DNA of 64,000 nt, taken from positions 123,635,741 to 123,699,740 of the forward strand of contig CM041465.1 of the NCBI GenBank assembly GCA_023213395.1, in the 5' to 3' direction. Each line of letters opens with the position of its first letter. Positions within the stretch are counted from its first letter, which is position 1. The notes beneath the pieces were generated by a model, which made no database searches, had not been told where the DNA came from, and was given only the letters and a program-made list of their open reading frames with translations. Both the position numbers and the translations under genes were made by a program. This document shows positions 3,658 to 44,460 of this stretch, piece after piece. This DNA is from Cycas panzhihuaensis (taxonomy: Eukaryota; Plantae; Cycadophyta).

Positions 3658-4187
3658 TATTAGAATTTAGAATTTAACTTTGATACCATATTATGATGTA
3701 CTCATTATATGGAGCAAGAGTATATCAAACATGTATAATCAACAAATCATATCATGAGAAATGTACATTACTCATGTATGTAAGATCAACATAAAAAGCA
3801 ATAACATGAATTATAAATATGTAAATAGATCAAACATGTAATAATCATTCACCATAAAAAAGACAATATATTTATACATAGAAACCTCAATGTGAAGAAA
3901 AACACAAGAAAATGTTAGAATTAGGAGCTTCTTTTTAGATATCAAATTATTACATTTCTAAATCAATCTCTCTTTCTCAAGTCCTCAAGTGGTGTGTATA
4001 TATTTATAGATATGTCACCTCATAAATATCATATAATATATTTTTAATCATTTCATCATTCAATAAGATGTTTACATGAATAATCATGCATTTTTAATCT
4101 CTCAATATATTTGGTGAGTAGAATTTTGTGTAGGTCCACTACTTTGCAATAAATATTATATATGTAATAATATTACATATTCCAACA
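3658..4187 (-). repeat. 3' LTR of N1
   Basis: Aligns end to end with 11123-11653; minus-strand start TGTTGGA adjacent to the PPT. Confidence 0.9.
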
Positions 4188-9612: not shown

Positions 9613-11122
9613 AATGAAGAGAAAATATAACTACAGAAGTAATATAATAATAAACTTTAAACCATACAAATAAAAAATAATATAAACAAGCCAAGCACTC
9701 AATAAAAAACATCAAGAGATTCAGGTCTAAGCATGGACCTTTTATTAATATAAGCAACATCTAAAAAATTATAGAGGTAAATAAACTCAAACTCTTCACA
9801 TCGACTCATCCACACAACCACTCTATTACATGTGTTGTTATATAAGAATATATAGACACAACATTACAAGATACCACCTTACAGTTTTACAATACAATAA
9901 GCATAAACAATGGGCCAATAAAGACCCCTCAGACCCCACAAAAGGGCTCGAGTGTAATGCCTATATCCATGTAACACTTCCAAAGCGTTAAACATATCTA
10001 ACATTCATAATAGCTAATAAATAAATATTTGTGATCCTCACATTCTAAACCAGCACATAAGTTTTATTACCACTAAACCTTTGTTTATAATATTAATGAG
10101 TTTATGTCACAAATTTTTATATGAACCCTTATATAGTAATACTGCCACATGTTGCATAAATCTTCTATCATACAATAAATACTTGCAACCTCTATATACT
10201 CTTTATAATAATAACACCCTCATATTTGCCAAAAAATAGGTAATTAAAATTTTGTCTATATATCACCATTTCAACATGCCCTCATATTCTTTGCTTCATA
10301 TGTCGTCACAAGACCATTAAATTTTTATGCAAAATATGTATAACTACTTCAATGTTACCATAATATCATACCAAAATTAAACTTATCATAACTCTTCATA
10401 ACCACATACCTATTTTTTCATCAAATCTACACTTTTTCATATTTGCCACATCCCATCATAATCATCACAAAGTAGATCTTTAAAACCTATCTTTAGTTGC
10501 TATTAAAAATGCCTCATACCCATCTTAATTTGTTGTATACTAACTAGGTATTATCTTACATCTGATGTCTTCTTCATTGTAATTATTTTTGCTTCACTAG
10601 TTGTAAGGTTAGGTGAAGTTACTAGTTTCACAAAACCTCAATCACGTCTACAAGGGGTCAATTTGCGTAGGTAAACTCAATTGGAAATAATATCTCCTCA
10701 TCATTTGGTGGACTTGATTCAAATATCTACATGTTTATAAATATGACATCAACATGCTTAATATAAGTGTCTATATAAATTCAAAAATTAACATTACACA
10801 TCAATTTGTAGTATTCATCGCATGCAACTTCCTCTCCTATATGTGGCTTTATCATTGTATGTTACTTCATCATCATCTATATGTAGTTATAATCACTTGT
10901 ATGTAGATCCCTATATCAACTTTATTTAGCCCTAGAATCTCAGTCATATATCACCGGCATAACTAGCAAGATCAATTTTTGGCTCATCAAAACACACTTC
11001 ATACTGAGCTTATCATTGGCTCTATACTAGTTCAAATGTTGGCTCAATTGACTCATCAATCTAGTTCATATAGGTTTACTACCCACTTTTATAAGATTTT
11101 TTATAACATGGCTCTAATGCCA

Positions 11123-11653
11123 TATTAGAATTTAGAATCTAGCTCTCATACCATATAATGATGTGCTTATTATATGTAAGGGAGGTATATCAAACATGTA
11201 TAATCAACGAATCACATCACAAAGAATGTACACTAATCATATATGTAATATCAACATATAAAGCAATAACATGAATTATAAAGTATAAACAGATCAAACA
11301 TGCAATAATCATTCAATGCAAGAGAGAGAATAGAGTTATGTGTGAAAAACTTAATGGAAGAAAAACCACGAGAAAAGATTGGAGTTGAACGCTTCTCTTT
11401 AAATACCCAATGATTATATTTCTAAGTCAATATTCCTTTTTCAAGTTCTTAATTGGTATATATACATATTTATAAATATGTCACCTCACGAATAGCCTAT
11501 AATATTTTTTAAACCATTTAATCATCCAATAGGATATTTACATGAATAACCATGTATTTCACATCTTTCAATGCATTTGGTAAGTGAGATTTTGTGTGAA
11601 TCCACTGCTTCATATTAAACATTATATATGTATCAATATCATATATTCCAACA
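11123..11653 (-). repeat. 5' LTR of N1
   Basis: Aligns with 3658-4187; followed on the minus strand by PBS tggcattagagc. Confidence 0.9.
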
Positions 11654-22628: not shown

Positions 22629-23267
22629 ATATAGTCATCGGAAGGACAAGGCAGGTCCATACCAACAGATTTCTAGCCCTACTATTATTGTGGTAGATAT
22701 GGACATTTTTTTAGTGATCATATATTTTATAATATGCCAACTTACTATCATTGTGGATGAGTAAGACATCATGCTAACCATTCTCCTCAAAGCATGTAAA
22801 AATTTAGAGAGAAAAAAGAGTTGAAGTTATTAAAATATACAATGTTTAATATATTTGTTGTACACATATACTTCCCACCATTGACATACATTGAGATATG
22901 TGAGATGTACACATATCCATGTTATCACTCTATTGGATAATATAAAGGCTCGTAATATATGATAGACTACTCATGAGGTGATCTCACTATGTATATGTAC
23001 ACTCACCACTTAAAAACTTGAGTAAGGAGAGAGGAGAAAGATGTAAACCTTATTATCATAAGCGAAGTCCTAACTCCACTTTCTCTTGTGGTTTTTTCCA
23101 CAATGGATTTTTGACATATACATCTTAGTGTCTACCTTATGGTAATGCTTATACTTGGTGAATGCATGCTTTATATATTTGATATTTGATATTCATTTTG
23201 ATTAATTCATTATATGTAAATTCTCATGAATTCATATTTTTCTATTATTATTGCATCATTTATCTTA

Positions 23268-23425
23268 TGGTATTAGAGCAGCTACAATCATATTTTAACA
23301 TGGGATCATAACTAATCTCGATATTCCTAATATTTTATCATGGTATCAGAGTAACTACAATCATATTTTAACATGGAATCAAAGTTAATCTCAATATTTC
23401 TAATATTTTATCATGGTATCAAAGC
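23268..23425 (+). repeat. Array of five iMet PBS-like 12-mers with alternating 21/28-nt spacers
   Basis: PBS-like copies at 23268, 23301, 23341, 23374, 23414; spacers end in AACA or ATCA. Confidence 0.9.
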
Positions 23426-26400
23426 CTATAGTTTTCAGATATGAGGTATATTTGTTGACCTAGAAGTATGCATATGCCAGTGATATGCACGACTGATAAC
23501 AGGGCAAATAGAGTCAGTCAAAGTCACATACAACAGATGCTAATGGTATGTTGATATGTTGAGTTTATCATGGATATTCATTTATACATATAGGTGCCTA
23601 TATTCTAGAAGCATGGAGGTACTTAAGTAGTATATTAGAATGAAGTATTTAACCCATCAGTGGATCGAGAAAAAGTAAGCATGTACAATAACATGTTGAT
23701 AGATACAGATAGTTTATAATAGCACCAAAAAGGTATGTGACAACTAATAGTTAAGTGGCATGATATGATTTTGTTAAAAGCATTATGATAAGAAAATATA
23801 TTAATCTTGACATATGAAATATATGCAAGGGTAATTTTTTATTACAACGGCATAAAATTTTATTATATGGACAATAACATATATATGAATGAATTTGATG
23901 TATATGGTATGAATTATTTGTGGGAGCATGAAAAAGAATTTTACAGTGACATAAATTTTATATGGGTGTAATTGGAACAAATTGATGAATATGAAAATTA
24001 CATGAGGGCATGATTATTTGTTTATTATGATAGAACGTCAAACCTCATGATGATGACATGCAAAAATAATATAGGCATGAGTAAATTGACAATTATATTA
24101 TATAGGCATTTTATTAAATGAATGGAATTTTTTTTTTATGAGACATTAATATGGATAAAATTATGGTTTTATGGAATAATATTATGGAAAGAAAATATAT
24201 ATTATTATCAACACAATTTGATCCCTATTTGCCAGGCAATAGTAATACACAATTTTCTTGATATTATCTCTGTTGTTGGAACAATAGGAACTACTTCAAT
24301 GCTCTTTGGTGCTAATTATTTGAGGGCATGGAGGAATGATAGTTTGTCCAGTAAATACCCTACTAGATAGAGCACGTAGTTAACAATGATCAAATTTACT
24401 ATACCAACAATTGGAATGTTTATAGGTCTACATGTTTGTTGTTGTAGCTTATCCATAGCCTGTCTGCAAACAATTATTCCCATGTATGGAGGCCCAAACA
24501 GAGTCAACAACCATCACACTTACCATTACAAAGGATCTATAGACACAACGAAGAGATGATCGCCCAAACACATAGGAGACGACGCCCTTATACAACACTC
24601 ACCATCATGCCCACAACTATTAAGATAGGAGAAACCCTTGTGGCCATCCTAGTCATAATTGCCCAAAGACCCAAAGCAAACAGTGCCTGAACTTAGAGAT
24701 CAATTGTCTTCTCCATATAAGAAAGATTACATAACCATCATTATGGAGAAATGAAGAACAATTGGACTATGCCAAGCCACACTAAATTACGCATGCATAT
24801 GCTCATAGATCTAAGCACAAAGAAATAACTATGAAAATTCACCATGCTCGTTGCCATTAAATGCCCATGGCTTTATGAAATTATCAATAGCAAATTTATT
24901 TTTCACACAAATTATCTTTATATGCAAGCAAAATTATTTTATGCAAAGATTTGATTTTTAACATAAAAAAAATTGCATATGGTTTGAAAACTTTAAGTGA
25001 ATTGGATGTTTTTTTCAATTCTACAAAGCTCTTGATAGGTCAATAAGTGGTCACATGGTTAGTTCATATGAGCAGGGGTATGCTCCAAAATGGAGTAAAA
25101 TGAATTGAAAAACTTTTTATTTTTTAAAAAATTTATTTAATATTTGATAATATTTCAATTCTGCCTCCATTTTCTTAAAGATCATATAATTTTTAATGGG
25201 TCACTAGCACATTTTACTATATAACTTCTCACTTGTGTATTAGATTCAGGTGTTGTCAGTTGCGTTGGAAAGTACACTTTGAGACGATCAAAATAAGTGA
25301 TCAAGTAATATGCTTCAAATAGTAGATGATAGAGAAAATCAAGGGTAAATTTGATGTAAATGATCCAAACCTCATATAGGATAAATTCTATACCTATTTT
25401 CAAGAAACTTTTAGCCAGTTCTTATGTTTTCTATGGCTCTAAACATGATGGTAAAGTTATTCTTGAGTAATGGTTGATGAAAAATAAAGTTTAAATTAAA
25501 ATCAAGCATTTTAAGGCCCATTTATGACATTTTGAGGCATATTTCAATTGAAAAAAATCATTAAATAAGAAACATTTGATGGATTTGTAACATAAGATAT
25601 CCTTGATATGATGGTTATTCATTTCCCCCTTGGCAACATCACATTTGGTTTAGTAGATAGCAAACCCTAAACAAACATGCAGATCGCCTAGTTATTAAAA
25701 TAGTTTCTTTTATGACAAGGAGAAACCACTTGTTATTTGGCACACCACATTAGTTATTGATGCTATCCAACTAGATGTTGAGTATAGTTTACCTTATTAT
25801 AGTTAACTTGTCTTAGCCAAATAATTCAACCTATTCCTAAAGTTAGATTGTTCAAGATGTGATCCAGTTGTTCACTTGGTCCACCTAATGCTACACTTAC
25901 ACAACAATCTCAATTATGTTATTCCTACAAATAATTTAGAAGGATGATAAACCATGTATCCAAAGCAATTTCCTAGTGAACTAATGATTACAATGGTTAG
26001 TTACCCATGTATCTTGGCAAATGGTTATTGTTTTATATGGACTCATACATTACTTTACTTGATTCTTGATTTGATAAATGGTTAATAGGATGTTAATCAT
26101 CCAAGTTAATATTGATTAAAAGTATCTATATAGGTGAAGATATGGAGTTGTGCATAAAAGCACTTCATATATATTAGAGTTTTATACATGTTAATGCTTG
26201 ATGAAAATAAGCATATGGTTACAAGTTATAAATGATACTGCATACAGGATACAGGATACAATGATAGGTTATAGGTTCCAACATACAGGTTGAAGACATG
26301 AAAACTTGAGATCAAAATCTAAAGATAATAAACATCAAGGGAGAGTGTTAAAATATGCAATGTTTAATATATTTGTTATACACATATACCTCCTACCATT

Positions 26401-26670
26401 CACATACATCGAGATATATGAGATGCACACATACCTATGTTATTACTCTATTGAATAATGTAAAGACTCGTAATATATGATAGATTGATCATGAGGTAAT
26501 CTCAATATATATATGTACACTCACCACTTGAGAACTTGAGCAAGGAGAAAGCAGAAATATGTAAACTTTATGATCATAAGTAGAGTCCTAACTCCACCTT
26601 CTCTTATGATTTTTTCCATAGTGGATTTTCCACATATACATCTTAGTGTCTATCTTGTAGTGATGCTTAC

Positions 26671-27576
26671 TATTAGGACATATTTTCGCACATAAACTAT
26701 GAGGAAGATAGAATGCAGGCTCATATTGACTAGTGGAATATAAGTACGGACCATACAAAGGTATGCATAGTGAAAAAATATAGAAAATGTGTAATATAGG
26801 TACGTATGATAGGTACGTACCTTTTCATGTACAAAATATAAGGTACATATCATTTTGGATATGCTAGTAAACAAAAACGTACACATGAACAAATCTGACC
26901 CAAAGACACCTAGATATAATGACATCATCCCAAATTAACATATGTATGAACGTATGGATAGAAAAGATACCATTAAGGAGACTTAATCATGTGTTTTAAG
27001 TAAAAAGGTACCTTAGTGATAAAAGGTATGGTTGTGACTTTGAATCATAACCCTTCACTCAAGAGGCATAAAAAGGACATATTTAATGATACTTTGAGGA
27101 TCATTCCAGTGATGAGAGCCAACTATTCAATCCATGAGGTAGTACGATAGCCAAAGTACCAAGGAAGATAGTACAGATTATGGATTCAATAGATGCATTC
27201 CATTATACATTCCATTTTGTAATACATGTGACATAATCTTATATATATGATTGGAACATATGCAGGATACATTCCAAAACTAAATGTATTAGTCCTATTA
27301 TTTAATACAGTGAAGAGTTATGTGAAATATTATGTCTTATGCATGCCATAATGATTATATAATGGAATTTATGCTGATTGGTATACTGTTGTGTGGAATT
27401 TATAATGATATTGTGATGAATTAAGGATGAATGTGTGATAACATTGTGTGCATAAGAACCTTATTGATAGTTAATAGGAAAAGAATCATGTTGATCATAT
27501 TCTAAGCTAGACCAACAACCAATGATCCCTTAACAAGTGTTGGTTTTCATAAGTATAGTGAGTTTTTAAGCCAACA
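26671..27576 (+). repeat. 5' LTR of G1
   Basis: Aligns with 43380-44267; TG start mutated to TA; ends CCAACA. Confidence 0.93.
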
Positions 27577-27749
27577 TTGGTTCTATTGCTTACATCTATT
27601 ATGAAGGCACGGGACTAGGAGTTTCACAAGGGGAGAATGTTTAAAGGACAAGGAACCCTGGCTGTCATTGTAATGGCAGGTTATAACTAAGACTCCGACA
27701 GCTAAGGGACCTTCTAATTCCACCTAAAAGGCCTTCGAAGGTGGGATGG

Positions 27750-30552
27750 CCACAAAAAGATACTTCACCTAAAGGGAAAGAAACAGTAGACAAAGAGAAT
27801 TACGATGATAAAAAAAATTAAAATTGAGAAGGATGAGGAGATTAAACTTATATAATAATGAAACTAAGGGACAATCCATTGAAGAATCTGAGGCAAGTGG
27901 AGCCCAGACACCTCAAGAACAAGTAGAGGAAAGAAATGGCAAGCAAATGCTACTAACATGTGCCCCAATTAAGTATGACCTTTTAAGCCCAGAAAAGGAG
28001 GAAAATTTAGAAGGAAATTTAGAATAAAGTGACACCTTAAGGAAGAAGAAACATATAAATGTGGATGATACCTCAAAGGACCCAAGTGATAACAAGAAGG
28101 CAGTAGAGGAAGGTCCCTTAGTGGACTGGGAGAATAAATTAATAAGATAATTATTTGAAGATTCACCAGACAAGGGATATAAACAATCATATCTAGTAGT
28201 CACACCATCAACGGTACAAGTACCAGGAGTATTCAGACCTATTCATTTAAAAATACCATTTCAAAATCCTTTATTTAGGAGAGACAATACTACACCAAGC
28301 ACACCAAATATATCACCCAAAGTGAAGAGTGAACGAAATGGAACGAAATCTTCAAAGAAATCAAAAGTAGAAAGGTCACCACCACTGGGAAGGACACCAA
28401 TGTAGTTTCTAAGGATGGACAACTCAAGGGATTTTGGAAAACTAATTTTTAATGACACATCATATGTGGCAGAGCATATGTACCTATTCCAAAATTTGAT
28501 TAACATGAAAAAAATTATAGATGAGGATGAGATAAAGGAAAGATTTGCCTATACACTAAGGGGAGTACCATTGGCATGATACAAGGAGTTGGATAAAAAG
28601 GAAACCTATGCAAGCATAAAGAAGTCATTCAAGATGAGATTTTAAAAATTTTAGAGCAATGAGGTTGTTGAGATTGCTCTTAGGAAAATCAGACAAAGAT
28701 TAGATGAATCAGTATTAACCTATATTAGCCAGATGAAAATAATCGCCACCAATATGATCAATGAGACAATTCTAAATCACAATATGAGGATCTACTTTGT
28801 TAGAGAGTTGAATAAGAAATTAAGATCTATGATGCATGACATCCTCTAAAATCATTTAAAAATGATCAAGAGTTGGCATTGGATTTTGAAGCCCAGATGG
28901 ATGCCCAAGCGGGAGGACATGACCCCCTATTACTTAGATTACAAGATGAGATAAGGGAGATAAAACAAAACCACTATAATTGACCCCTCTGTCAAATGGG
29001 AATATCAGAGGAAGAATCAACAATTTAAGCTTTAGGGAAGGAAGTAGCAAGACTAAGAATGAAAAATATGAAAGAAGAAGAAGCTAAGAAAATGAAAGAC
29101 CGAGAATTTAAAATTGAAAGTGGTGTCACATATGTGAACAAAGTTTGCATACAACCAAAGAGTGTAAATTTAACCCAAAGAATAGTGTGATATATAAAAA
29201 AGATAAGTGGTGCCACATATGTGACATGTATAATCACAACACCATGGAGTGTTTCTATAACCTCAGAGGGAGAAGTTATAGAGGATGAGGTTAGGGAAGA
29301 GGAAGCAACCCACCTCAGAACATATACATAATAAAAAGTACACTGAAAACCTTGAAGAAGAAACAACCAATGGGAAGATGTTTAATTTATTTACAATTTG
29401 GGCATTAGAAGTTAGATTTCCCAACCAAACAAGATTATGAGCATAAACCATTCATATGTAACAATTATGGCCCAAGTGAGTATAACACAGAAGAATGCAA
29501 GGGAAAAGCCAAGATAACTAATTTGATGACTATTATCCTCGAGAATAGTAAGAACGTGAAATTTCATAATGAACAGAAAGGAAAAGAAGTAGCGAGTGGA
29601 GAATATCTAAACCCTAAAGTGGAAATTGATCACTTTAAGCAAGCAAAACAAGTGTTGAAAAAATTAGCCTAGCAAACAATCAAAATAATGTTACCAATGG
29701 GCAAATCAAAGACAAAATATGTATACATTAGAAAAAATAAACCTCATGAGAGAGAAACCAAGGAACAAAAGATGTAACCTCAGTTGGTTTAGGCAGAAAA
29801 ATTGTTTAAAGGGTTACCAATGGAGGATATCCCCCAGATGCTATTGCTAATAGAGAATTTGGTAAAACAATTACAATTAACAATCCCTTTATATTAAGTA
29901 ATAGATTATATTAAGGCCATAATACTATAATAATGGGGAATTATAAAAAGCTTGAAAAAGATAATGCCATCCTTTGACTTGGATACTATGGTCATAATCA
30001 TGGTATAGGAGAAAAATTTTTCAAAGGTGATTATAGATGGGGGAGAAGTGGTGAATGTCTTTCCCACCACAACATGGCAGAAGTTAGGGAGTCCTAAGTT
30101 GGAGATTGTGATCTACTTATTAAAATTAGCAAATGAATTATTAGTAAGACCAATTGAAAAGTTGGTAAACATAAAAGTGGACGTGGCAAGAATAGTAGTC
30201 AAAATTGATTTTACCATTGTGGAAATGGAGAAATGGGTAATATCCTATTCAGCCTTGTTGGGTCACCTATGGTTATATAAAACCCAATATCTCCAAAGTT
30301 AGAAGGATGTGACCTTCATATTATCAGATGGAGGAAGTGAAATGGTCCTCCCAATGCTGGGGAATAATTCCATTAAGGTAATACTAGATGATGCATTTAG
30401 TACAACCATCGCAAGCAAAAAAGCATCCTCTTTTAATGAAGGTAACTTGTATCATACAGTCAAAGAACCGACAAAGTTGATAAACTCTTAAGAGATAGAA
30501 TCCACCTACTTCAAAGAAATTTACAACTCTTCCGATGACAAGAATAGGGAAA
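27750..30552 (+). pseudogene. gag-pol: G1 gag-protease pseudogene
   Basis: Capsid-like ERFAYTLRGVPLA*Y...ALRKIRQRLDESV (~28520-28730); aspartyl protease ORF 30027-30302 (IIDGG...ALLGHLWL). Confidence 0.85.
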
Positions 30553-31674
30553 TGATCAAATTTTGGATCCATTAAATCTAAAATTTTCTTCAAAAAAGAG
30601 TATAAAATAATTTGGTGGTACTTATTTTCATATATCCAACCTTCTTTAGGCAGAAAAATGCTATTTGGAATCTTAAAATGTAAAAAAAATGTATTTTGGT
30701 ACAACCAATCTAGTCTTTGGTATGACCAGTCCAATCCATGGTATGACCAGTCCAGTCCCCAATATGACCAGACCTGCCTTAGGTACATCCAGACCAATAG
30801 TCAATGTGACCAAACCTACCTTAGGTACAACTAGACCAGTAGCTAGTGCAACTAGGCTTGCCTTAAATGCAACCCTGTTTTACCAGGGTACGACTAATCT
30901 CATTTTAGGTGTGACCAAAAAATAATAACCCTTACAGAAAACATGATTTAATCAAAAAATTAAACTCTGTTTATCACAAAATTTTAGGAGGACATTTACA
31001 CAAGTGTCCTCTACCAAATAGAAGAAAGAAATCAAAAGTTTTAATCATTTTTTAACAGATCAAATAGAGGGCTAAAAAAGGAAGAGAAAAAAATAGAAAA
31101 ATGGTTTTCAGAAGTTGAATAAGCTTTAGAAAAATAGGAAAACTACCCAGATCTATACAGGAAACATGGAGAAGTGCCCAACAATTATATGCATAATGAG
31201 AGGAGCAAGAAAACTTAGGAAATAACTTAGATTAACATTCCAAACATGAAAATTGCTCCAAAACTAAGTTTGTGTAGGGAACAGAGAAAAACAGAGGCTC
31301 AAAAGTGGAACAGACAGGAAGAAGTGGAGAAAAAGAGCCCAGATCTATTCGTGAGGCACAAGAGGAGTCAAAGAAGGCTCAGACATAGCCAAATAAGGAA
31401 GAAGACAGCTAGAGAAATCTTGGAAAGACGCCTAAGTTGAAAAAGATTTAAGAAGTGGTTTTACGGTTGAATAGAGAACAAAGCCTCACTTCAAAGTCTC
31501 TGAAAAATGTACTAGAAAGTACGCATCAGCTAAAATAGAAAGTGTGCAATAGTGCACTAGAAAATAGAATTTTGTAAGAACAATTACAAATATGAAAATA
31601 TATTATATTGTATATTGATTCTAAATTTGTTGCAATTGGTTTAAGTCTTTACTTTCTCATTCAAATTCAGATCA
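30553..31674 (+). repeat. 5' LTR of G2
   Basis: Aligns with 36412-37588. Confidence 0.94.
30698..30920. repeat. 21-bp minisatellite (about 10 units) in the G2 LTR; second copy at 36558-36775
   Basis: Approximate consensus ggt(g/a)(c/t)gaccag(a/t)cc...; present in both LTRs. Confidence 0.88.
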
Positions 31675-31859
31675 ATATTGTTGGTATCAAAGTTTAATTT
31701 TAAAACCCTTGGGAGTTTTAAAGATTCTTGTAGAAAAAAGAGAGAAAAACCCTCATTGTTTTGTCGTGCGAGAAATTTTATGAAAACTAGGTTTCAGTAT
31801 CAATTAACTGACAAACCTTTGATTAAACCATTTGAAAAAGAGCATAGACAACAAAGGAA

Positions 31860-34800
31860 AATGGTCGAATCAAAACTAGAGATAGAGAAAAGTTTCATGA
31901 AGATGGAGCAAAACCTTGATAGGTTAACTCAACTTGTGGTGCAGTTTGTTTCTTAACAAGGTGCATCCTCTTCAATAACCAAAGGCAAGAAGAAGGAAGA
32001 AGATGAACTCATAAAAGAATAGATAAGTAAATGTACCCATGAAGGACCTGTAGATGACCAATAAGCTGAGGAAGGAGATGACAGTCCTATAATAGCACAT
32101 CCATTCAAGGTAAAAGAAAAGCTTGAATTATCCATCTATGATAGAACCTTAGATGCTGAAACGTTAGATGATTGGTCGGACCACCTAGAAACATACTTTT
32201 CAATTTATAGGTACAAAAACTAGTAGAGAATCACTTTTGCTAGGTTAAAACTATCCAAACTTGCATTAGTTTGGTGGAATGTATACCTCAAATCCCATAA
32301 TGTAACTGAAATTACATGGCAGTGATTTAAAGCCCTTATCAAAGAAGCAATTCTACCCTATTGGGTATGAAGAGTAGTAGAGAATTAGATGGCAATACTA
32401 TAGACAAGAAAGATGCCAAAATATTCAAGAATACACAACAGAATTTTAGAAGTAAGTGATTGTATTGGGCATCTCTTTACTGGGCAAATATATAATGTTG
32501 AAATATGTTGGTGGGCTATACCAACATTCAACAAGAACTTCAATTATTTAAAGTGAAAGCACTAAATGAAGCCAGCAAGAAAGCGGTTGCCATAGGGAAG
32601 AGGAATAAGAAGGTTTTTACAGAGAGGAAAAGACTTGTACCTCAAGAAGGTAGTAACAAACTAACCCAAGGAAAGAAGTTTCCAAGAAAAGTTGGACAAC
32701 AACTAATTGGGGGTTTTGGTGAGAAGAAGCAAGCTAATACCACTCAAATCAAAGCCTCATACACACATTACAAGCGAATAGGACACGACATAGAAGATTG
32801 TTAGTTCTTACATCTAAAGAAGTGGCCCATGAATAAGGAAAAATATAAAACCAAAGTTGAAGGTAAAGCTTTACTTAATTTTGTAGGAGATGAAGATATT
32901 TGTGGCACCAAAGAAGCCAATAAGAAGTTGATGCTCATGGCCAATGTTGAGCCTAAAAGTAGCCATCAACAAGTTGATCTAGAGATTAGAGAGGAGCTCT
33001 TCATAGTGAGAATCCAAGTAAAGCAAAGTATGATTGATGCCATTTTTTTATGAAGAAGCTAAAAGAACAATCTCAAAGGCATTAGTGAAGAAATTGGGAT
33101 TAAAAATGTATGCACATCCGAAACTATATCCTTTTGGATGGCTGCAAAAAACTTATGAACTACAGATTACTAACTAATGTAAGTTTAAATTTATAATTTC
33201 TAAAAAGTTCAATGGAAAAGTTGAATGTGAAGTGGTTCCTTTGGACGTTTGTCAAGTTTTGTTTGGTAGCCTTTATCTTTATGATAGAGATCGAGTCCAT
33301 CACAGGAGGCTGAGGAAGATTTGACTCATCAAGGACGGAAAATCATATTTGATTAATGCATCAAAGCCATAAAAGAATATCTCCCTCATATCCTCCCAAC
33401 AAGCGAAAAGATCGATTAATGCTTACGGAAAATTTGTTCTACTGATGGTGAAGCAGAAGGTGGAAGAAAATGAGCAAGTAGAGTCCTCAACACAGGCACT
33501 GGAGAGGAAATAATTGTAGTAGATTGAAGGCCTAAGGAATAGGTATAATGGCATATTCTAGGAGCCAAAAGGACTGTCCCCTAAGAGAGTAATTGAGCAT
33601 GAAATCGAATTGGTTGTTGATTCGCCTTTGCCCAATCTTAGTCTCTATCAAAACTCTATTATGGAGAATGAAGAGATTAAGAAGTAGATTCAAGAACTCT
33701 TGGGGTAAGAAGTGACCAAGCTGAGTTGTTCTCCTTACGATTCACCTATTGTTTTGGTACCAAAGAAAGATGGAGGATGGAGAATGTGCATTGACTATCA
33801 AACTTTAAACAAAATCACCATAAAGAATTGACATCCCCTACCATAGATTGATGACTTGTTCGACTAGTTGTAGTCTAGAAGATATTTCAGTAAGTTGGAT
33901 CTAAAATTAGGCTACCATCATATTCAAATCTAGGAGGAGGATACTTGGAAGACAGCCTTCAAATCAAAGCAAGGGCTATTCAAATGGATGGTGATGCTTT
34001 TTGGTTTGTGCAACACACCTACCACCTTCATGAAGTTGATGAATGAAGTATTAAGACCTTTCATTGATGATATTGTTATTGGTTATCTAGATGATATTTT
34101 GATTTTTAGTCAGACTTTAAATGCACACTTCCAACATATTGAATAAGTGCTCAAAGTTCTTTAAGGGAAGCAGCTGAAACTTAACCTTAAGAAGTGCAAG
34201 TTTGGGAAGCAATCTCTTGTCTTCTTACTTTTTTAGTTGGAGGAAGATAATTGAAGATTGACCCAACAAAGATTAGAGTTATTCTCAATTGACCCATACC
34301 CAAGATAACCACGAATGTAAGAAGTTTCATTGGTGCTTATCAATATTTAAGAAATTTTATTTTTAAATTCTCTCAAATTGCAACATCTTTACATGCATTA
34401 ACAAAAGGGCATGCAAAGTTCCATTAGGGGAATGAACAAGAAGCTTTTAGGCTTCTAAAGTAGAAGACTTGTGAAGCGCCAGTGTTAGCCTTACTATCGT
34501 TAAAAAAGCTATTCGAGTTGGAGACCGATGCTTCAAGTTATGCCATGGGAGTAGTATTAAACCAAGAAGGAAGATCAATAGCATACCATTCAAAGATTTC
34601 TAATGGAGATGTAATAAACTACCCAACTTACATTAAGGAGCTCTATGCATTGTATTAAGCAGTGAAGTATTGGAAACCTCACTTGTTGGGAAAAGAGCTA
34701 GTCATCTACACTAACCATAAGCCTTTGCAATTCTTATAGATACAGTCTATATTGTAGCAGGCTAGGCACATGAAGTGGATGTCCTATTTACAACAGTTTT

Positions 34801-36372
34801 ACATTGTGGTCAAATACAAGAAAGACACATCAAACAAAATTGTAGACTTGTTATCCAAACCTATCAACAGTAAGGTATTTCTAGCTTGTTAGTAGTTATA
34901 CAATTTCATTTTTTTTGCCATGATGAGTATGCTAATTTGTACTTGGAAGATGAGGCATTCAAGCCTATCTTAGAGCAGCTACAGCAAGGAAAAATAGTTG
35001 CTAATTTTCAATTGAAATATGGTCTACTTTTCAAGCATAATAAGCTTTGTATTCTAAAGCATGCGGACTGAATGAAGTGGATAAGAGAAGCTCACACCTC
35101 TCGATTGGTAGGACACTTTAGAGTAGGAAAAACATTTCTAAATTTGTAGTGATATATGTATTGGCCTAATATGCAACAAGATGTGATTATAGCAATACAA
35201 GAATGTACATTGTGTAGCACATCAAAGCTGGCCAATAGGAAGTTTGGATTGTACACTCCACTTCTTATTCCATCACAACCATGGGAGAGCATCTCCATGG
35301 ATTTCCTCAGAGGCCTACTAAGGACTAAAAATAGTATGGATTATTTGTTTGTAATTGTTGATCAATTTAGTAAAATGGTGGTGTTGATTCCCTGTAGGAA
35401 GACACATACAGGAGAAGAAATAGCTAGATTATTTTTCCAGCATGTTTGGAGGCATTTTTGGCTTCCCAACTCTATCATTTCTTATCAAGATAGTAATTTT
35501 TTTAGCCATTTTTGGCAAACTCTTTGGGAAATAATGGATACAAAGTTAAAGATGAGTATAGCTTTTCATCCTCAAATAAATGACTAGACTGAAGTTATCA
35601 ATAGGACATTGGTGCAGTTGTTATGAGGATATAATGCCAAGCATCCCAAGATTTGAGACAAAAGTCTCCTATACCTGCAATTTACCTTTAATAGAGCAGT
35701 CTATAGCACAACTAAAAAATCACCATTCGAGATATGTTTAGGATTTCTACTTGCAAGTCCATTTGATTTAGAATTTTCAGCCAAACATACTACAGAAATA
35801 AAAAGAAGGAAGAAAGATAAGAGAAGGCACAAAGATTATTGGAAGGAATCAGAAAAATTCATCAACAGGTTGAGAAGCAACTTCAAAAATCTCAACAAAG
35901 ATATAAACAAAGGTATGATGCACATAGAACTAGTAATTCCTTTAAGGAAGGAGATAGAGTTTGATTACATTTTAGTAAGAAAAGATTGCAAGGTCAAGGT
36001 AAAGAGTTGAAGCCTATACGGTATGGTCCTTTTATAATCTTGAAGAAGATTGGAGGAAATACTTTTCAAGTTGAACTTCTAAAATTTATGAAGATGTATT
36101 CAATTGTGAATGTTGAGAATCTGAAAATGTTTGAACCATCCATGTTAGATGAAGATGAAAATGGGGTTTCACTTTTGCCAAATCTAGAGGGAATTGTGAG
36201 TGGAGAAAGAAGAACTAATGCAAAATGATTACATTCTTCAAAAGTAGCATAACATAACCAAAAGAGGTATAATTGATTCCTTTTGGATTAGAGAGAAAAG
36301 ACAACTACCTAGAAAAGCAAAATGGTATAGCAAGGAGAAGAGAATAATCAAATTTCTTCATTTACAATTATA
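31860..36372 (+). pseudogene. gag-pol: G2 gag-pol pseudogene with C-terminal chromodomain-like segment
   Basis: gag 32100-32480; CCHC ~32770-32800; [18 protein letters not shown] and YLDD (~33750-34100); RH ETDASSYAMG; INT 35156-35587; terminal FWIREKRQLPRKAKWY...FLHL. Confidence 0.92.
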
Positions 36373-36411
36373 AGATTCATGAGGCCATGAACTCCTAAAA
36401 AGGAGGAGCTT

Positions 36412-37588
36412 TGATCTAATTTTAAATCTATTAAATCCAAAATACTCTTCAAAAAAGAGTATAAAATAATTTGGTGGTACTTATTTTCATATGTCCAACC
36501 TTCTTTAAACAAAAAAAATGTTATTTGGAATCTTAAAATGTGAAAAAAATGCATTTTAGTACAACCTATCCAGTCTCTGGTACAACCAGTCCAATCTCTG
36601 GTACAACTAGTCCAGTCCTTAGTGTGACCAAACCTGCTTCAGGTATGACCAAACCAGTAGTCGGTGTGACCAGACCTACCTCAAGTATGACCAGACCAGC
36701 ACTAGTGCAACCAAACCTACCTCAGGTGCGACCGTGTTTTACCAGGGCATAACCAGTCCTATTTTAGGTGTGACAAAAAAATAGTAGTCCTCATGGAAAA
36801 TGTGATTTGATAGGGAAAACAAACTTCGTTTATCACAATTTTTTAAAAGGATGTTCGTACAAGTGTCCTCTACCTACTAAAAGAAATAAATCAGAAGTTT
36901 TAGCCAATTTAAATCATTTTTTAATGGATCGAATAGACAGTTTAAAAATAAAGAGAAAAAATGAAAAAATGGTTTTCAAAAGTTGAATGGACTTTGGAAA
37001 AATAGAAAAACTACTCAGATCTATACGGGAAGCATGGTGAAGTTCCCAACAATCATATACGCAATGAGAGAAGTAAGAAAACTTGGGAAATAATTTAGAT
37101 TATCATCCCAAATGTGACAATTGCTCTAAAACTAAGTCTGTGCAAGGAACAAAGAAAAACAAAGGCTAGAAAGTGGAATGGATGAGAAGGAGCAAAGAAA
37201 AAGAGCCCAAATCTATTTATGAGATACGAGAGGAGTCCAAGAAGGCTTAGACACATCCAGAGAAGGAGAAGACAAATGGAGAAATCTTGGGAAGATGCCC
37301 AAGTTGAAAAAGATTCCAAAAGTGGTTTTGCGGATAAATGGAGAGCAAAACCTCACTTCAAAATCTCTGAAAAACATACTAGAAAGTATGCAATAGCCAA
37401 ATTTATGCCCAAAATTTATTAATCCATCCCCAGATTGCTGTAACAACAAAGAAAGTGTGCAACAATGCACTAAAAAATAGAATTTTATAAGAACAATTTC
37501 AAATATGAAAAATATATTATATTGTATATTAATTCTAAATTTGTTTTAATTGGTTTAAGTCTTTACTTTCCCATTCAAATTCAAATCA
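36412..37588 (+). repeat. 3' LTR of G2
   Basis: Aligns with 30553-31674; carries a ~40-bp segment near 37405-37445 that the 5' copy lacks. Confidence 0.94.
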
Positions 37589-40500
37589 AGCAAAGCTTGT
37601 GGATTACTAGTTGCATGATGCATATGAAGTCAACCCTTCATCCTATAGGTGTAATTTACTTTCCAAAAATGTAATTTAATTTTAAATCTTTTGATCATAC
37701 AAGTATTAACGATAACATAAGAAGTAGCATAAAGAATGATGATAGTATAACCCCAACCCTAGACCTAAATCCTCATACCCTAACATAGGCCCTTACCCTA
37801 GTTTACTTTCTAATAAATCTATATTATCTAATACTAACCCTAACCCTAACCCCTCCTCTACATTGGGCGTGGGTCCTAAGGTAGATTGCCCATCCCCATT
37901 CTTATTTCAACCCAAAGGAGGAGATAACAATCCTTCCTCGTCATCTTTAGAGGTATAGCCACCCAACAGGTCCTTTTCAACTATCAGCACCAAATCAAAG
38001 GAAGAAGAAAAGGAACTAGAAGAATGAATCCCTAAAAACTCAAGTCTAGGAAATAAAATTACCATCACAGAGGAAAAGAATCATGAAACCTACATTAGAG
38101 ATTATGTAAAACCTTTTTATGGAGACCAGCTATATGAAACTAACCACCCAATATACTGTATAGAATATTGGTTGGAAGAGGGAATCTTAAATAAAATTCA
38201 ATAGGAATTAGATTTAGTACTAACATTACAAGGGACTATGTGGTATTAGTACTCAGCCCATCAAACCACCTTCAAAAATTGGAAGACATTGCAAATTGCC
38301 TTTAGAGCCTAATTTGACCCTCCTCAGTAATCAAATATCCCATTATTTTATGTAGGAGATTTCCCAATTAAACACATTCATAGATGTAAGCAAGAGTGGA
38401 TATTTTTAAGCTTGCCTAGGAAGACTTGGAGTAATCTTTTCTATTATACCCTAGAGCAAGTGACAAAAAACTAGTTTCTGGGGAAAGAGCAAAACTTGGA
38501 TATAACATGGGGTAACCTTAAGAAATCCTTCATAAAAACATTCTCACATATATCAGACAATATAAAAATTGATAAATTACTCAAATTAATTAAAAAACTA
38601 AGTATGGACTTAGAACAGAAAACTATATCATTAGTACATAAGAAGGAGAGGGAGAATGAAAAGGAAGAAAACCATAACTACCTACGAAATTTGCAAAAGT
38701 TAAATATGGTAAAAGAGAAATTGAAAAAACCCCCACCCATCATGTGGAAAAAGAAGAAGCAAGGAAGATCCAAAACACATATGAATAGGAAATTATTGGG
38801 ATGATCAAACTATGGCATAAGCCTAGCAACTATTTGAGGAATTTCATGATGTTTTCACATAGTCTTATAAGGATCTTAAGGGCATTCCCCCATAAATTGG
38901 AATGTATCACATTAACCTCATCGAAGGAGCTAAATGGTGAAGTAGAGACCTTATCGCATAAACCCAAAATATAAAGAGAGGATAAAAGCAGAACTAGACA
39001 AAATGTTGGAAGTCATGTATATTTACGAGATTGACTACACCAACTAGGTGAGTCCAATAGTAGTAGTCCCGAAGAAGAATGGGAAAATAAGAGTTTATGT
39101 GGATTATAAGCAAATTAACAAAGTAATAAAGAAGGATCCCTTCTCATTACCTTTCACAAAAGATGTTTTGAAAGCTATAGGAGGAAATGAGATGTATTCC
39201 TTCACATATAGGTTCATTGGGTATAACCAAGTTTAGATCACCATAAAAGATCAAGGAAGGTGACTTTTGTGACAGAATGGGGAACATACGCATACAAGGT
39301 AATGCCTTTTGGCCTTACCAATGCCCCAGCCATATTCCAAAGAATCGTGATCAATATTTTTTACAAGATGATTGGATAAAAGTGGCACTTTTTCTAGATG
39401 ATTGGACCTTTAACGAACTCATGAAAAACCATATAGACAATTTAAGAAAAATATTACAAATATGTCAAAAGAACAAACTATGTTTAAATTCAGAAAAATG
39501 TATCTTTTTAGTACCCTTTGGAAATTTGTTAGGGCATATCGTGAGCTGGGAAGGATTATTAACGGATCTGACTAAGGTTTCAATAATTCTACATTTCTCA
39601 GTGTCATTTACAAGAAAACAATTAAAAGGATTCTTGGGATTAATAAGGTATTACAGGAAATTCATTAGCAGGTTTGATAGTATATCAGAATCCTTGGAAA
39701 AATTATTAAAAAAGGACATAGATTGAGAATGGAGCATTGAGCAGCATCACACATTTAAATCATTGAAAAAAATAATCATATCTGCAACCATATTAAGATT
39801 TCTGGATTGGGAAAGAATCTTCTATGTGCATGTTGGCACATCATAATATGCTATCGGATGTGTACTCATATAACCAAACAATGATAAGGTAGATCACTCC
39901 ATTTAATTTGCAAGCCGAAAGTTGACAAAAACTGAGTAGAATTACACCACAACTAAAAGGGAAGCACTTGAAGTGATGTATGCATTACAAGAATTTCATC
40001 ATTAATTACTGTCAAATCCATTTCTATTCTTTGTGGACCACTAAGCTCTTATGTACTTAGTGAACATACCATAATGAAGGGTCAAATTAGCAGGTGGCTT
40101 ATGTCATTTTAAGAGTTTTCATTTAAGATAATGGTAAAACCTAGGAAAGTTCATGTAATACTAGATCAACTATTAAGAATTACCAACGCAGAAAAAGCCA
40201 CAGGAGTGCCTGATGGCTTCCTAGGCACAACCCTATTTAGTGTAGAGATAGTTCCAATGGAGTGGCATGAAGGAATACCAGAATACCTAGGGACAAGTGA
40301 ACTACCACCTAGCATGGATCGAACATAACATTGAAATTTCATACAAAAGGCAAAACCATATTAATTGATCAAAGAGGAACTATATAAATTGGGACCTGAT
40401 AAAGTGTTGTGTCAATACATAAGGCTATATGAAATCAATCAAATTATGGCCCAAGCACATGAGGGAGTGGATGGAGGTTATATGGGGAAGATGGGAACTT

Positions 40501-41510
40501 GGAGAAAAGTGCTAACATCAGGGTTTTGGTGGCCATTAATGTTTGAGGATGTAAGAAAGTGGATACAAACATGTGACTATTGCCAGAGAGTAAAAAAACC
40601 TAACCAACAGGATTTTCAACCCCTCCACCTAATTCTACCCTTGGCACCATTCAAAAAATGGGGACTTGATTTCGTCGGACCAATCAAACTAGCTACTTGA
40701 CGATCCCAAACTTGTTTCATCTTAGTAGCACCAGATTACATAACTAAGTGGGAGGAAGCATGAGCACTTAGAAAAGTCAATTCTAAGAGTACAGGTCTAT
40801 TTCTCTATGAAGTGATCATAACATGTTTTAGACGTCCATTGGAGATTATAAGTGACTAAGAAGTTCATTTCCTAAATCAAACTATTGAAATATTGACATC
40901 GATTTTTATGATTAGTCATTCAAAATCCACACCTTACTACCCAAGAGCCAACAGGCAAGCTAAGAGTTAGAATAAAATCATTAAAAATTATTTGCAAAAA
41001 ATTTGGAACATTAGGAGATCAAACTAGGCCGAAAGTTACCATTAGTATTATGGGCTTTCAAGATAACATACAAGAGATAAACCAGACAAATGCCATTTTA
41101 ACTTGTGTACAGGATCAAAGCCATTCTTCCAACTGAATTTGAAATTTCCAGTTTAAGGGTCACCATGCAATGCCAATTGGATAACTTCCATTTCTTATGG
41201 AAAAGGTTGGAAGAACTAGTATGATTAGAAGAAATTAGACATATGGCGAAAGGATTACAATGCATGGAAAAAAGATGACAAAAGGCATGGCATAATTACC
41301 ACCTATAAATATCACAATTTAAGGAAAGCAATCAAGTCCTGCTCTATGATAGCAAATTCAAAATGCACCCCGAGAAATTAAAGATGTGATGGTTGGGACT
41401 ATACATCACTAAAAGAATATTTGAAAATGATTAAGTACAACTTCATGAGATCAGTGGACCTTTGTTACCAACCCAAATGAATGGCAACCAGTTGAAACCC
41501 TATATCAATT
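37589..41510 (+). pseudogene. pol: G1 pol continuation (linker with capsid-like repeats, RT, RNase H, integrase)
   Basis: DVFT*SYKDLKGIP ~38848; ORFs 39048-39236, 39277-39726, 40131-40328, 40365-40700; C-terminal HPEKLKM*WLGLY and NGNQLKPY. Confidence 0.92.
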
Positions 41511-42189
41511 AGAGTAGGAGCTTACTAGTTGAATCAGTTGGTTGTACCATATTGTGTTGCATAAAATCGAGGCAAATCATATTGCCTTGATATCGAAATG
41601 TAATTTAGTTTGATATGTAATCAAAAAAAAAAAAAAAAGAAATAGAAAAATAACTGTAACTCATATAATACAAATAAGTAATATGGCAATTTACAAAAAG
41701 AAAGATACACTACCATAAGAAAAATTAAAAGAGACAAATAAATCGAGAAAAAATACATCAGAAGAATCAATTTTTTGTGTACATACTAATTAGATACATT
41801 AAATATACCAAGAAAGGTACATTACTAGGTATGCAAAGTGATAATAGTGTAAGTGATTAAAAATACACTATATATACCAAAAAAGTATGATATCAAATAC
41901 ACACAGAGTAAATGGACTAAATGTCAAAGTATACTATGTGTACCTGTAGCCATTCCCACATGGTACACAAATGATAAAGAGAGGAAAACAACCAAAATTT
42001 GATGTCAGCAATAATCTAGCTAGAAGTGCCTTACTTAAGGCAAGAATAAGTACAAATTTAGCATAGAAATTCAAGTAGATCATCAAAGAATAAACATCCA
42101 TTCCTAAAAAGGTACACACATAAGGTTTCATACTATTATTCTCTTGTCAATACTCACATTACTTCTAAATTCCCATAGAATTGCCTGCA

Positions 42190-43330
42190 ATGAAGACAGT
42201 AGGGTGCCAAGAAACATTTCTATGAAAATTAAAGGAGGAGTTTGAAGGATTGTCTACTCAGTTCAAAAGCCAAAGTCAAACAGGCAAGTTGGGAAGAGTA
42301 CATATATCTAAGCCCTCTCTACTAGGATCAAGAACTGATGGAAAATATATTATTAGAGTTTTAAAAGGATTTGAAGAGAATTAAATTGGACATAAAGATG
42401 ATACACATAATTATAGGGATTTCAAAGGAGGGAGAAGTCCCAATTGCCACCAAGAGATTAAAGGTAGACCAAGAAACCTAGCTATGGGAGTTTTGTTAGG
42501 AAAACACTTAGGTACTATTAGGAGGCATTCGTGTAGTAAACATCAAGGACATAACATTACAATGGATAACGAAGGTGGTAAACACAAGGTTTTTATCTAA
42601 AAGGAAATATACATACATTCCAAGGGAAATGATGCTGATACTACCAAGGGTTCGAGATGAGGAGCCACTAAATTGGTCAGAATTTTTGGTCATGAACATA
42701 GTACAGTAGATTAGAGAGATAATAACACAACCATTCATACACCCCTCCTAATTATTAGCTATTTTGATTCTTCAGTGTCTAAGAATAAAACCTCTGCAAT
42801 CACCCATCCACCCACATGAACCCTTAATGAAACAATAAGTGAATGCATTCCCAAAAAACATTCAAGACATGGAGATCAAGAGAAAAGTAAAAAAGGAAAT
42901 GACAAAAATCCTAAAGTGGATTTAACAAACTCTAGGAACTATTATTCCACATTATACCAAACAAGTAATATGAAGAAGTGCTAAGAGGAGACGGCATGAG
43001 GGTGAACCCGAGGGAGAAGTTAAAGCAGAACACTCCCTTAAGGGATGGACATAGTTTCTCCTTGTAATGAAAATAAGGAAGACATCATCACATCCAACCC
43101 AAATAGAAGGAAAAACACAAGAAAGAATTTATTTAATCAAGGAAATGGAGGAGAAATATAAGGCAAAAATAACTATCCTCCAAGAAAAAATCAAGGAAAA
43201 AGATGTTATAAGTGCAACCCTTACCCAAATCAATGAGAAAATTTTGGCAACACAAGACCTAATAATGGAGCAAAGGCAGCAATAGTAGCATTAGAGCAGA
43301 GAGGGGAAATGATACCCCAAAAATTTTAAA
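42190..43330 (+). pseudogene. G1 extra 3' ORF (Athila env-like / Transposase_32-like plus coiled coil), degenerate
   Basis: From 42521: GGIRVVNIKDITLQWITKVVNTRFLSKRKYTYIPREMMLILPRVRDEEPLNWSEFLVMNIVQ*IRE; coiled-coil ORF 43067-43285. Family assignment is by eye. Confidence 0.6.
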
Positions 43331-43379
43331 ATTTTGATGAGCAAGAAGGCTCAACCTAATTTTGTCAATCTAGGATAGA

Positions 43380-44267
43380 TGTTGGGGCATATCTTGGTAC
43401 ATAGAGTATGAGGAAGATGAATCGCAAGCTTGTGTTGACCTGTGGAAAGCATGTACGGACTGTATAGAAGTATGCATAGTGATAAATGACAAAAAACATG
43501 CAATCTAAGTATATATAATAGGTATGTGCCTTTTTTGGTACACAACATAAGGTGCATACCGTTTTGAGTACGTCGGCAGACAAAAAGATATGTATGAACA
43601 GATCTGACTTAAAGGCACCCAAATGTGATGATGTCAACCCAAACAGATGTACATACAGACATATAGATAAAAAAGACACTATTAAGGAGACTTAATCATG
43701 TGTTTAAGTGAAAGGGTACCTTAGTGACAAAAAGGTATGGTTATGACTTTGAGTCATAATCCTTCACTCAAGAAGCACCAAACAGACATATTTAATGATA
43801 CTTTGAGGATCATTCTAGTAGTGAGAGCCAAGTATTCAATCCATGAGGCAGTACGACAACCAAAGTACCAAGGAGGATAGTACGAATTAGGGATTCAACA
43901 TATGCATTCTGTGATACATTCCATTTTGGAATACATATGAGAATATTACACATATGGCTGGAACGTATGCAGGATACATTCTATAATTGAATGTATTAAA
44001 GTGAAAAGTTATATGGAATATTGTATCTTATGCATTCCATAATGATTATATAATGGAATATATGTTGATTGGTATACTGCTGTGTAGAATTTATGATGAT
44101 ATTATGATGAGTTAAGGATGAATATGCGATAGCATTGTGTGCATAAGAACATTAATGATAGTTAATAGGAAAAGAAGCATGTTGACCTTATCTTAAGTTA
44201 GACCAACAACCAGTGATCCCTTGACAAGTGTCAATTTTCACAAGTGTAGTGAATCTTTAAGTCAACA
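43380..44267 (+). repeat. 3' LTR of G1
   Basis: TGTTGG...TCAACA. Confidence 0.93.
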
Positions 44268-44460
44268 CTTATGCTTGGTGAATGTATACTTTATATGTTT
44301 GATATTTGATGTTCATGTTATTTAATTCATTATGTGTACATACTCATGAGTTCATATTTCTCTATTATTATTGCATCATTTATCTTATGGTATTAGAGAA
44401 ACTATAATCATATTTTAACATGGAATTAGAGTTAATCTTAGTATTTCCAATATCTTGTCA

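What the first reader, a model, noticed from the sequence alone, without database searches (positions are those of the whole stretch)
23268..23425. Repeat-spacer array of tRNA-iMet primer-binding sites, each preceded by an LTR-end-like motif: possible alternative priming and LTR-extension system
Seen: five PBS-like 12-mers (tggtattagagc 23268, tgggatcataac 23301, tggtatcagagt 23341, tggaatcaaagt 23374, tggtatcaaagc 23414). They are separated by alternating 21- and 28-nt spacers ending in AACA/ATCA, the motif that ends copia LTRs. The 3' LTR holds only the first two copies (44388, 44421) and ends at 44460. Both LTRs are 513 bp only if the 5' LTR ends at 23340, so PBS #3 was the primer site used. 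Two copies therefore lie inside the LTR and two more downstream. Established: LTR elements normally have one PBS outside the LTR, the primer position fixes the U5 end, and PBS sequences are targeted by 3' tRNA fragments and by miR845 in Arabidopsis. Inference: each CA+PBS unit may be an alternative priming and integration end, so the LTR can grow or shrink by whole units and record past priming events. The array could also help a non-autonomous element compete for tRNA/RT or decoy PBS-directed small RNAs.
Basis: partly seen in the sequence, partly recalled or inferred. Interest (0 to 1): 0.8.

Follow-up and report, generated by a model that had tools for sequence, protein, structure and literature searches.

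The report
Retrotransposon ends built from primer sites
A decayed plant jumping gene carries five tandem copies of the site where its copying is primed by a tRNA, two of them inside both terminal repeats, and related and unrelated elements show the same layout with varying copy numbers, likely because the site gets duplicated and priming at a downstream copy pulls the older ones into the repeat; no benefit to the element is shown.

Summary
Five iMet-PBS-like 12-mers lie at the stated places as 2.2 copies of a 73-bp unit. Both LTRs are 513 bp once a nested 17.6-kb element is removed from the 3' LTR; both hold copies 1-2, so copy 3 defined the end. Correction: only 4 of 5 copies follow an LTR-end motif, and copies 2/4 share a mismatch, so only 3 and 5 look like complete junctions. 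The array is not private: three related LTRs in the window carry an inner PBS, and contigs of four public runs show other copies with fewer, equal or different units. A metagenome scan found 109 tandem-PBS loci (61 clusters); 12 of 44 tested have copia domains downstream. Of four with an LTR partner, two ended at the last PBS and two at the first. Best reading: junction duplication plus primer-site shift, likely neutral. The decoy and competition ideas have no support. Ten literature searches found no plant report; this scan noted similar arrays in other genomes. Without a genome, no TSD-checked family tally was possible.

The parts
22823..22827 (+). left 5-bp target-site duplication of element A (4/5 match with 44461-44465)
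   Evidence: A interrupts the gag zinc-knuckle/protease remnant of element E
22828..23340 (+). 5' LTR of element A, 513 bp, with PBS copies 1 and 2 in its last 73 bp
23268..23279 (+). PBS-like copy 1 (1 mismatch); inside the LTR; not preceded by CA, likely retired
23301..23312 (+). PBS-like copy 2 (type b, 3 mismatches here); inside the LTR; preceded by a 12/12 LTR-end motif
23341..23352 (+). PBS copy 3 (1 mismatch), directly after the 5' LTR end: the inferred primer site of this insertion
23374..23385 (+). PBS-like copy 4 (type b, 3 mismatches here), in the leader
23414..23425 (+). PBS copy 5 (1 mismatch), preceded by a 10/12 LTR-end motif and followed by the unique leader
23341..26345 (+). 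internal region of A, 3.0 kb, no Pfam family at E<=0.001 in six frames (one weak DUF4216 at E 0.048); two 3' segments are 65-68% like the 3' internal region of element C
26337..26345 (+). polypurine tract before the 3' LTR
26346..26670 (+). 3' LTR of A, left part (325 bp)
26671..44267 (+). nested element B (LTRs 26671-27576 and 43380-44267) that splits A's 3' LTR
44273..44460 (+). 3' LTR of A, right part (188 bp), with inner PBS-like copies at 44388-44399 and 44421-44432
44461..44465 (+). right target-site duplication of A
11111..11653 (-). related element C: 5' LTR 11653-11123 (about 67-69% like A's LTR), inner PBS at 11153-11142, primer PBS at 11122-11111
3658..4187 (-). 3' LTR of element C with inner PBS-like copy at 3688-3677, 31 nt before the end
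63534..64000 (-). third C-type LTR (cut by the window end, no PBS after it) with a decayed inner PBS-like copy (4 mismatches) at the same place

Best explanation
The array is a run of duplicated 'LTR end + tRNA-iMet primer site' junctions in a likely non-autonomous copia-type retrotransposon, and the LTR likely grew when reverse transcription was primed at a downstream copy, which turned the upstream copies into part of both terminal repeats. Shown: the anatomy, the inner copies in both LTRs, and unit-number variation among related copies. Inferred: (1) the junction is duplicated during replication, most simply when the plus-strand strong-stop DNA, which ends in a PBS copy, anneals to the wrong (upstream) PBS on the minus strand, turning core|a-b-c into core-a-b|a-b-c; (2) any copy with an intact PBS and an intact CA end can prime, and the one used fixes the U5 end; (3) internalised copies are released from selection and decay, as copy 1 (end motif lost) and type b (shared mismatch) suggest; (4) the process is largely neutral.
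For: Both LTRs get U5 from the RNA upstream of the primer site (standard model, passages of PMC7197481), so a PBS inside the 3' LTR requires priming downstream of it, short of LTR-to-LTR conversion. Three-way comparison of the 73-bp unit is star-like: 9, 10 and 15 differences against 9.5 expected from LTR-LTR divergence, as expected if all three were alike at insertion. Element C and the LTR at 63534 carry an inner PBS with a different spacer. Contigs of other copies: core followed directly by type b (19 contigs in X4, and 106-nt skips in X1 and X4); b-a-b bridged by two diverged contigs (X4 record 14, X1 record 7); b-b (a joint going back 41 nt in both runs); a further spacer type after a PBS followed by unlike sequence (15 contigs X4, 7 X1). 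Unrelated families: L097/L098 are two LTRs 3.6 kb apart on one contig, 384/391 identical, with 3 PBS on the 5' side and 2 inside the 3' LTR, while 7 of the 11 loci of that cluster have 2 PBS then leader. L001's partner copy holds 2 of 3; L009 (TSD found) and L063 hold 0 of 2. Decayed copies lie upstream in 7 and downstream in 1 of 42 hand-picked loci.
Against: No cDNA ends or RNA were observed; the mis-registered transfer step is purely inferred, and plain DNA-level duplication in a parent element would give the same array. No TSD-checked tally of family members was possible (no genome). The contig tables are cut (229 loose-end rows and 1372 pieces not shown), come from other species labels, and 73-nt skips are ambiguous in a tandem repeat. 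The two b-a-b contigs may be one locus. All long contigs shown for the core-a-b type end where A ends, so use of copy 5 on a five-copy template is not shown. L001 lacks a TSD and a PPT before its second copy. The 7-versus-1 polarity is from non-independent, hand-picked loci. Alignments disagree on whether C's inner PBS matches copy 1 (2 of 3) or copy 2 (1 of 3).
Confidence: 0.65

Rival explanations
1. One-off history: junction duplications and one or two ancient primer shifts happened in ancestors, and the family now primes at one fixed site; the array records no recurring alternation.
For: Copy 1 has no CA end and type b shares a position-4 mismatch in most laid contigs. The long core-a-b contigs shown (X1 records 1, 2, 3, 5; X4 record 10) stop where A's LTR stops.
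Against: Several unit orders and a further spacer type occur among copies. A young unrelated family has 2- and 3-copy forms side by side. PBS mismatches need not block priming (passages of PMC7472051).
Confidence: 0.15
2. The extra sites are kept by selection: they let a non-autonomous RNA capture primer tRNA and RT better than its helper, or they blunt PBS-directed small RNAs (miR845, 3' tRNA fragments).
For: The layout recurs in many families and A has no coding capacity. PBS-directed silencing is real (passages of PMC7197481 and PMC7472051).
Against: Arrays also sit upstream of gag/pol domains in 12 of 44 loci tested. Upstream copies tend to decay. The PBS positions in methylation-prone context are heavily mutated among copies. 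Extra target sites on the same RNA would be expected to add, not remove, silencing (inference). The array RNA has no special fold (z = +1.1).
Confidence: 0.12
3. The downstream 73-bp unit is a private tandem duplication made after this insertion.
For: It is a simple head-to-tail repeat, and two unit positions where the 5' LTR and downstream copies agree against the 3' LTR are polymorphic in the family, so shared changes are possible.
Against: The downstream unit is as far from the adjacent 5' LTR unit (9 differences) as expected for copies of insertion age (9.5), and b-a-b occurs on diverged contigs (11-14 substitutions plus gaps). It would not explain the two copies inside both LTRs.
Confidence: 0.08

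Closest known systems
Standard Ty1/copia U5-PBS junction with tRNA-iMet primer (PMC6317226, PMC7197481; passages seen)
   Same: 5-bp TSD, PPT, TG...CA-type ends (decayed), iMet-type PBS directly after the 5' LTR
   Different: five PBS-like copies instead of one, two of them inside both LTRs; spacers end in inverted copies of the LTR start
HIV-1 MAL-type 23-nt insertion, a partial PBS duplication downstream of the PBS in 14% of isolates (PMC3185550; passages seen)
   Same: natural duplication of PBS sequence next to the used PBS
   Different: partial and downstream only; the passages seen report no moved LTR end
Engineered HIV vectors with two PBS showing frequent dual initiation (Voronin and Pathak 2004; title only, from reference lists; paper not held)
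   Same: by its title, two PBS on one RNA can both initiate
   Different: artificial constructs; contents not read
Drosophila Gypsy with 5' and 3' PBS (PMC1635307; abstract seen) and an Anopheles copia cluster with two PBS (PMC3212995; one passage seen)
   Same: more than one tRNA-binding site per element
   Different: Gypsy's second site is at the 3' end of the RNA and dispensable; neither text seen describes tandem end+PBS units inside the LTR
Non-autonomous LTR elements (LARD/TRIM type; names recalled)
   Same: LTRs, PBS, PPT and a non-coding interior
   Different: a conserved interior across copies and the helper element were not established here

Membership tests
LTR retrotransposon | two direct terminal repeats | tested here: met
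   513 bp each, about 86% identical, no gaps
LTR retrotransposon | target-site duplication | tested here: met
   5 bp, 4/5 match; host gag-protease remnant continues across it
LTR retrotransposon | PBS after the 5' LTR and PPT before the 3' LTR | tested here: met
   23341-23352 and 26337-26345
Ty1/copia superfamily | own gag-PR-IN-RT-RH coding region | tested here: not met
   no Pfam hit at E<=0.001 in A's interior; tblastn with C's frames hit only the non-coding 3' segment
Ty1/copia superfamily | LTR and 3' region shared with a copia-coding element | tested here: inconclusive
   C's LTRs flank gag_2, Pol_BBD, rve, RVT_2 in copia order and share LTR and 3' segments with A, but that gag starts after a second PBS at 9612, so it may have been captured
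named copia lineage (Gymco I-IV, Tork, Ikeros and others of REXdb) | placement by RT/RH/IN phylogeny | not tested
   no lineage-labelled reference set was used; RT hits are mostly unnamed, best labelled ones PITA_ and Gb_ at 53-62%
LARD/TRIM non-autonomous family | non-coding interior conserved among many copies | tested here: inconclusive
   copy 1 end 4/12; type b with shared mismatch
   contig joints and loose ends and unrelated families; not TSD-verified for the A family
   needs ALE-seq, VLP DNA or degradome data

The most novel reading that the evidence does not exclude
The U5 end of many plant copia LTRs is built by a ratchet: end+PBS junctions duplicate, downstream priming captures them, old ones decay inward, and in some families the array is kept as a multi-primer switch that yields cDNAs of several LTR lengths from one RNA, helps non-autonomous RNAs win primer tRNA, and scatters miR845/tRNA-fragment target sites through solo LTRs.
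Probability: 0.15. Interest if true: 0.75.

Novelty: new variant of a known kind. Interest (0 to 1): 0.45.

Why it matters
It gives a fossil record of primer-site shifts, a simple route by which LTR U5 regions change length and sequence, and it appears to recur in many plant copia families without a report that I could find. Practically, inner PBS copies can mislead LTR-boundary and PBS annotation and PBS-primed methods such as ALE-seq, and they place tRNA-fragment and miR845-type target sites in 3' and solo LTRs. This locus itself is a dead, about 15%-diverged copy, so its value is as a pointer; young families such as L097/L098 make the idea testable.

Tried and rejected
No whole genome is held, so the TSD tally could not be done. 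A tandem-PBS pattern found nothing in viral contigs. No RNA holder was listed for the stretch, which is no evidence on expression. The 73-nt skips in the contig tables were not counted as evidence because they can arise from mapping within the repeat; depth tables were not used as copy numbers. RNA folding of the array showed no special stability (z = +1.1). A partner LTR for the second PBS at 9612 was sought and not found (score 59 against shuffles 56 +/- 8). Using family majority letters to polarise the three units gave mixed signals and is biased by mapping, so I dropped it. Many of the 109 metagenome loci are not retroelements: 6 of the 44 tested hit only bacterial or viral-type genes, others are satellites or coding repeats; 14 such loci were skipped in the partner search; L040 and L043 have gag on the other strand and were not counted. 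60 of 135 long ORFs were scanned. Sequence and place look-ups in earlier findings were blank. Ten literature searches found no paper on tandem or LTR-internal PBS copies in plant elements; the library lacks most subscription journals and I read no supplements, where element tables (for example of PMC6317226) could bear on this.

Full report
1. Observation. The five PBS-like 12-mers are at the stated coordinates with 1, 3, 1, 3 and 1 mismatches to the 12-nt tRNA-iMet PBS motif (motif from the finding and recalled), separated by 21, 28, 21 and 28 nt. They form 2.2 copies of a 73-bp unit made of a 33-bp subunit (a) and a 40-bp subunit (b), closed by a last PBS (c) that runs into unique leader. 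The 3' LTR holds only a and b and ends at 44460. The 513-bp match needs a nested element removed: A's 3' LTR begins at 26346 behind a polypurine tract, is cut at 26670 by element B (26671-44267, own LTR pair and 5-bp duplication) and resumes at 44273; the parts total 513 bp and align to 22828-23340 without gaps. A is flanked by a 4/5 target duplication and interrupts the gag-protease remnant of element E, which continues on the far side. So copy 3 abuts the true 5' LTR end.

One correction. Spacer ends are inverted copies of the LTR start (12/12 for a, 10/12 for b, at most 9/12 elsewhere in the LTR core), but the sequence before copy 1 scores 4/12 and lacks the terminal CA in both LTRs. In contigs of other copies most differences of type b from the PBS motif disappear, except at position 4, which most laid contigs share (6 rows of that table were not shown). 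Only copies 3 and 5 therefore combine a good end with a good PBS. Mismatched PBS can still prime in other systems (passages of PMC7472051), so type b is not proven dead.

2. What it is. A's 3.0-kb interior has no Pfam family at E<=0.001 in six frames: it is non-coding as far as can be seen. Its LTR is 67-69% like the LTRs of element C (minus strand, 11653-3658) and a third LTR at 63534-64000, and two 3' internal segments are shared with C. C encloses a broken copia gag-pol whose RT has mostly unnamed relatives, the best labelled ones with PITA_ and Gb_ ids (I recall these as pine and Ginkgo ids, so a gymnosperm-like host is inferred, not shown). That gag starts 75 nt after a second PBS at 9612 with no partner LTR, so the link between these LTRs and this gag-pol is not certain. 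Both C LTRs and the third LTR carry one inner PBS-like copy 31 nt before their end, with a different spacer, and C's primer PBS follows at 11122. Inner copies occur in 5 of 5 LTRs of the A/C group and 0 of 10 LTRs of the five other pairs.

Is the extra unit private? The downstream unit differs from the 5' LTR unit at 9 and from the 3' LTR unit at 10 of 73 sites; the two LTR units differ at 15; 9.5 is expected from the rest of the LTR. That is star-like, not the pattern of a late local duplication, though it cannot exclude one soon after insertion. No genome is held, so I laid public contigs. In four runs of three species labels 4405-7045 contigs per run lay on 22780-23680. On 23236-23476, 700 (X1) and 630 (X4) contigs lay. 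Shown there: core directly followed by b (19 contigs in X4; 106-nt skips in both runs); b-a-b bridged by two diverged contigs, possibly one locus; b-b (a joint going back 41 nt, both runs); a PBS followed by another spacer type and then unlike sequence (15 contigs in X4, 7 in X1); and five long contigs that follow core-a-b and leave the reference near A's LTR end. The tables are cut (229 loose-end rows, 14 joints, 1372 pieces not shown) and none of these ends is TSD-checked.

Is it general? A scan of metagenome contigs for two PBS motifs 12-42 nt apart returned 109 loci (about 300 estimated for the collection; about 0.7 chance matches per 1e11 bases of uniform sequence). They fall into 61 clusters; 60 of 109 have at least two copies preceded by CA within 3 nt, against 26% of random positions. 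Many are unrelated repeats, but 12 of 44 loci tested have copia domains in sense downstream (one below Pfam's cut-off; 60 of 135 ORFs scanned). Four have an LTR partner. L097/L098 (one contig, 3.6 kb apart, 384/391 identical) have three PBS on the 5' side and two inside the 3' LTR; 7 of the 11 loci of that cluster have two PBS then leader, L103 is another LTR end with two inner copies, and L101 shows a decayed third copy upstream. L001's partner holds 2 of 3, but lacks TSD and PPT. L009 (TSD found; its second PBS has no CA end) and L063 hold 0 of 2. Decayed copies lie upstream in 7 and downstream in 1 of 42 hand-picked, non-independent loci. The frequency relative to single-PBS elements was not measured.

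3. Mechanism. In the standard scheme U5 of both LTRs is copied from the RNA upstream of the PBS used, and plus-strand strong-stop DNA ends in a PBS copy that guides the second transfer (passages of PMC7197481 and PMC7472051). A PBS inside the 3' LTR therefore implies priming downstream of it, barring conversion between LTRs. Choice of primer site moves the LTR end but does not change the number of copies on the 5' side; gains need a duplication. The simplest one is an out-of-register second transfer: a cDNA primed at c whose plus strand anneals to the upstream site a turns core|a-b-c into core-a-b|a-b-c, which is A's layout, with all three units alike at insertion. This step is inferred; ordinary duplication in a parent element fits too. 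Retired junctions then decay. I put this largely neutral model at 0.65, a one-off history with a fixed site at 0.15, a selected function at 0.12 and a private duplication at 0.08. Nothing supports the decoy or competition ideas: arrays also occur in coding elements, upstream copies decay, and the array RNA folds no better than shuffles.

4. Known systems. A meets the structural tests of an LTR retrotransposon and fails the coding test; it behaves as a copia-associated non-autonomous element, lineage not tested. Nearest precedents: the partial PBS duplication of HIV-1 MAL-type isolates (PMC3185550, passages), dual-PBS HIV vectors (Voronin and Pathak 2004, title only; not held), Gypsy's second PBS at the 3' end (PMC1635307, abstract) and an Anopheles copia cluster with two PBS (PMC3212995, one passage). 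The plant survey PMC6317226 (12 of 13 passages) looked for PBS in 50 bp after the LTR and the passages seen mention no arrays. PMC1785368 (one passage) was not relevant. Ten searches found no plant report; subscription journals and supplements were not seen.

5. Novelty. A new variant of a known kind. Earlier unchecked notes of this scan describe the same layout in other genomes; I reached the reading before seeing them and did not check their loci.

6. Verdict. Real, family-level and apparently recurrent across plant copia elements; most likely a fossil record of junction duplication and primer-site shifts rather than a dedicated system. Interest 0.45.

Noticed in passing
window 21942-21994 (+): A perfect iMet PBS at 21956 sits inside the gag remnant of element E, between two copies of a 14-nt LTR-end-like motif ending in CA: a free-standing end-PBS-spacer-end piece of about 53 bp from another family; related element D lacks it.
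   Followed up: partly
window 9601-9612 (-): Element C has a second perfect PBS 1.5 kb downstream of its primer PBS and 75 nt before gag, preceded by a CA-type end but with no partner LTR found; C may be a chimera that kept a donor's junction.
   Followed up: partly
window 26671-27576 / 43380-44267: Nested element B has more diverged LTRs (K2P about 0.215) than element A into which it inserted (about 0.16), so LTR-divergence dating gives the wrong order here.
   Followed up: no
window 27577-27590: B's 5' LTR is not followed by an iMet-type PBS; its primer type was not determined.
   Followed up: no
L004, L006, L008, L010, L053, L063, L076, L087: In this copia cluster each spacer holds a short palindrome that looks like both LTR ends back to back (TG-start and CA-end motifs).
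   Followed up: no
L030, L095, L037: Long satellite-like arrays of 30-39-bp units that each contain the PBS-like motif, with no LTR context seen.
   Followed up: no
window 20053-20064 (+) and 57766-57777 (-): Two further single PBS-like sites whose LTR partners were not found in the window.
   Followed up: no
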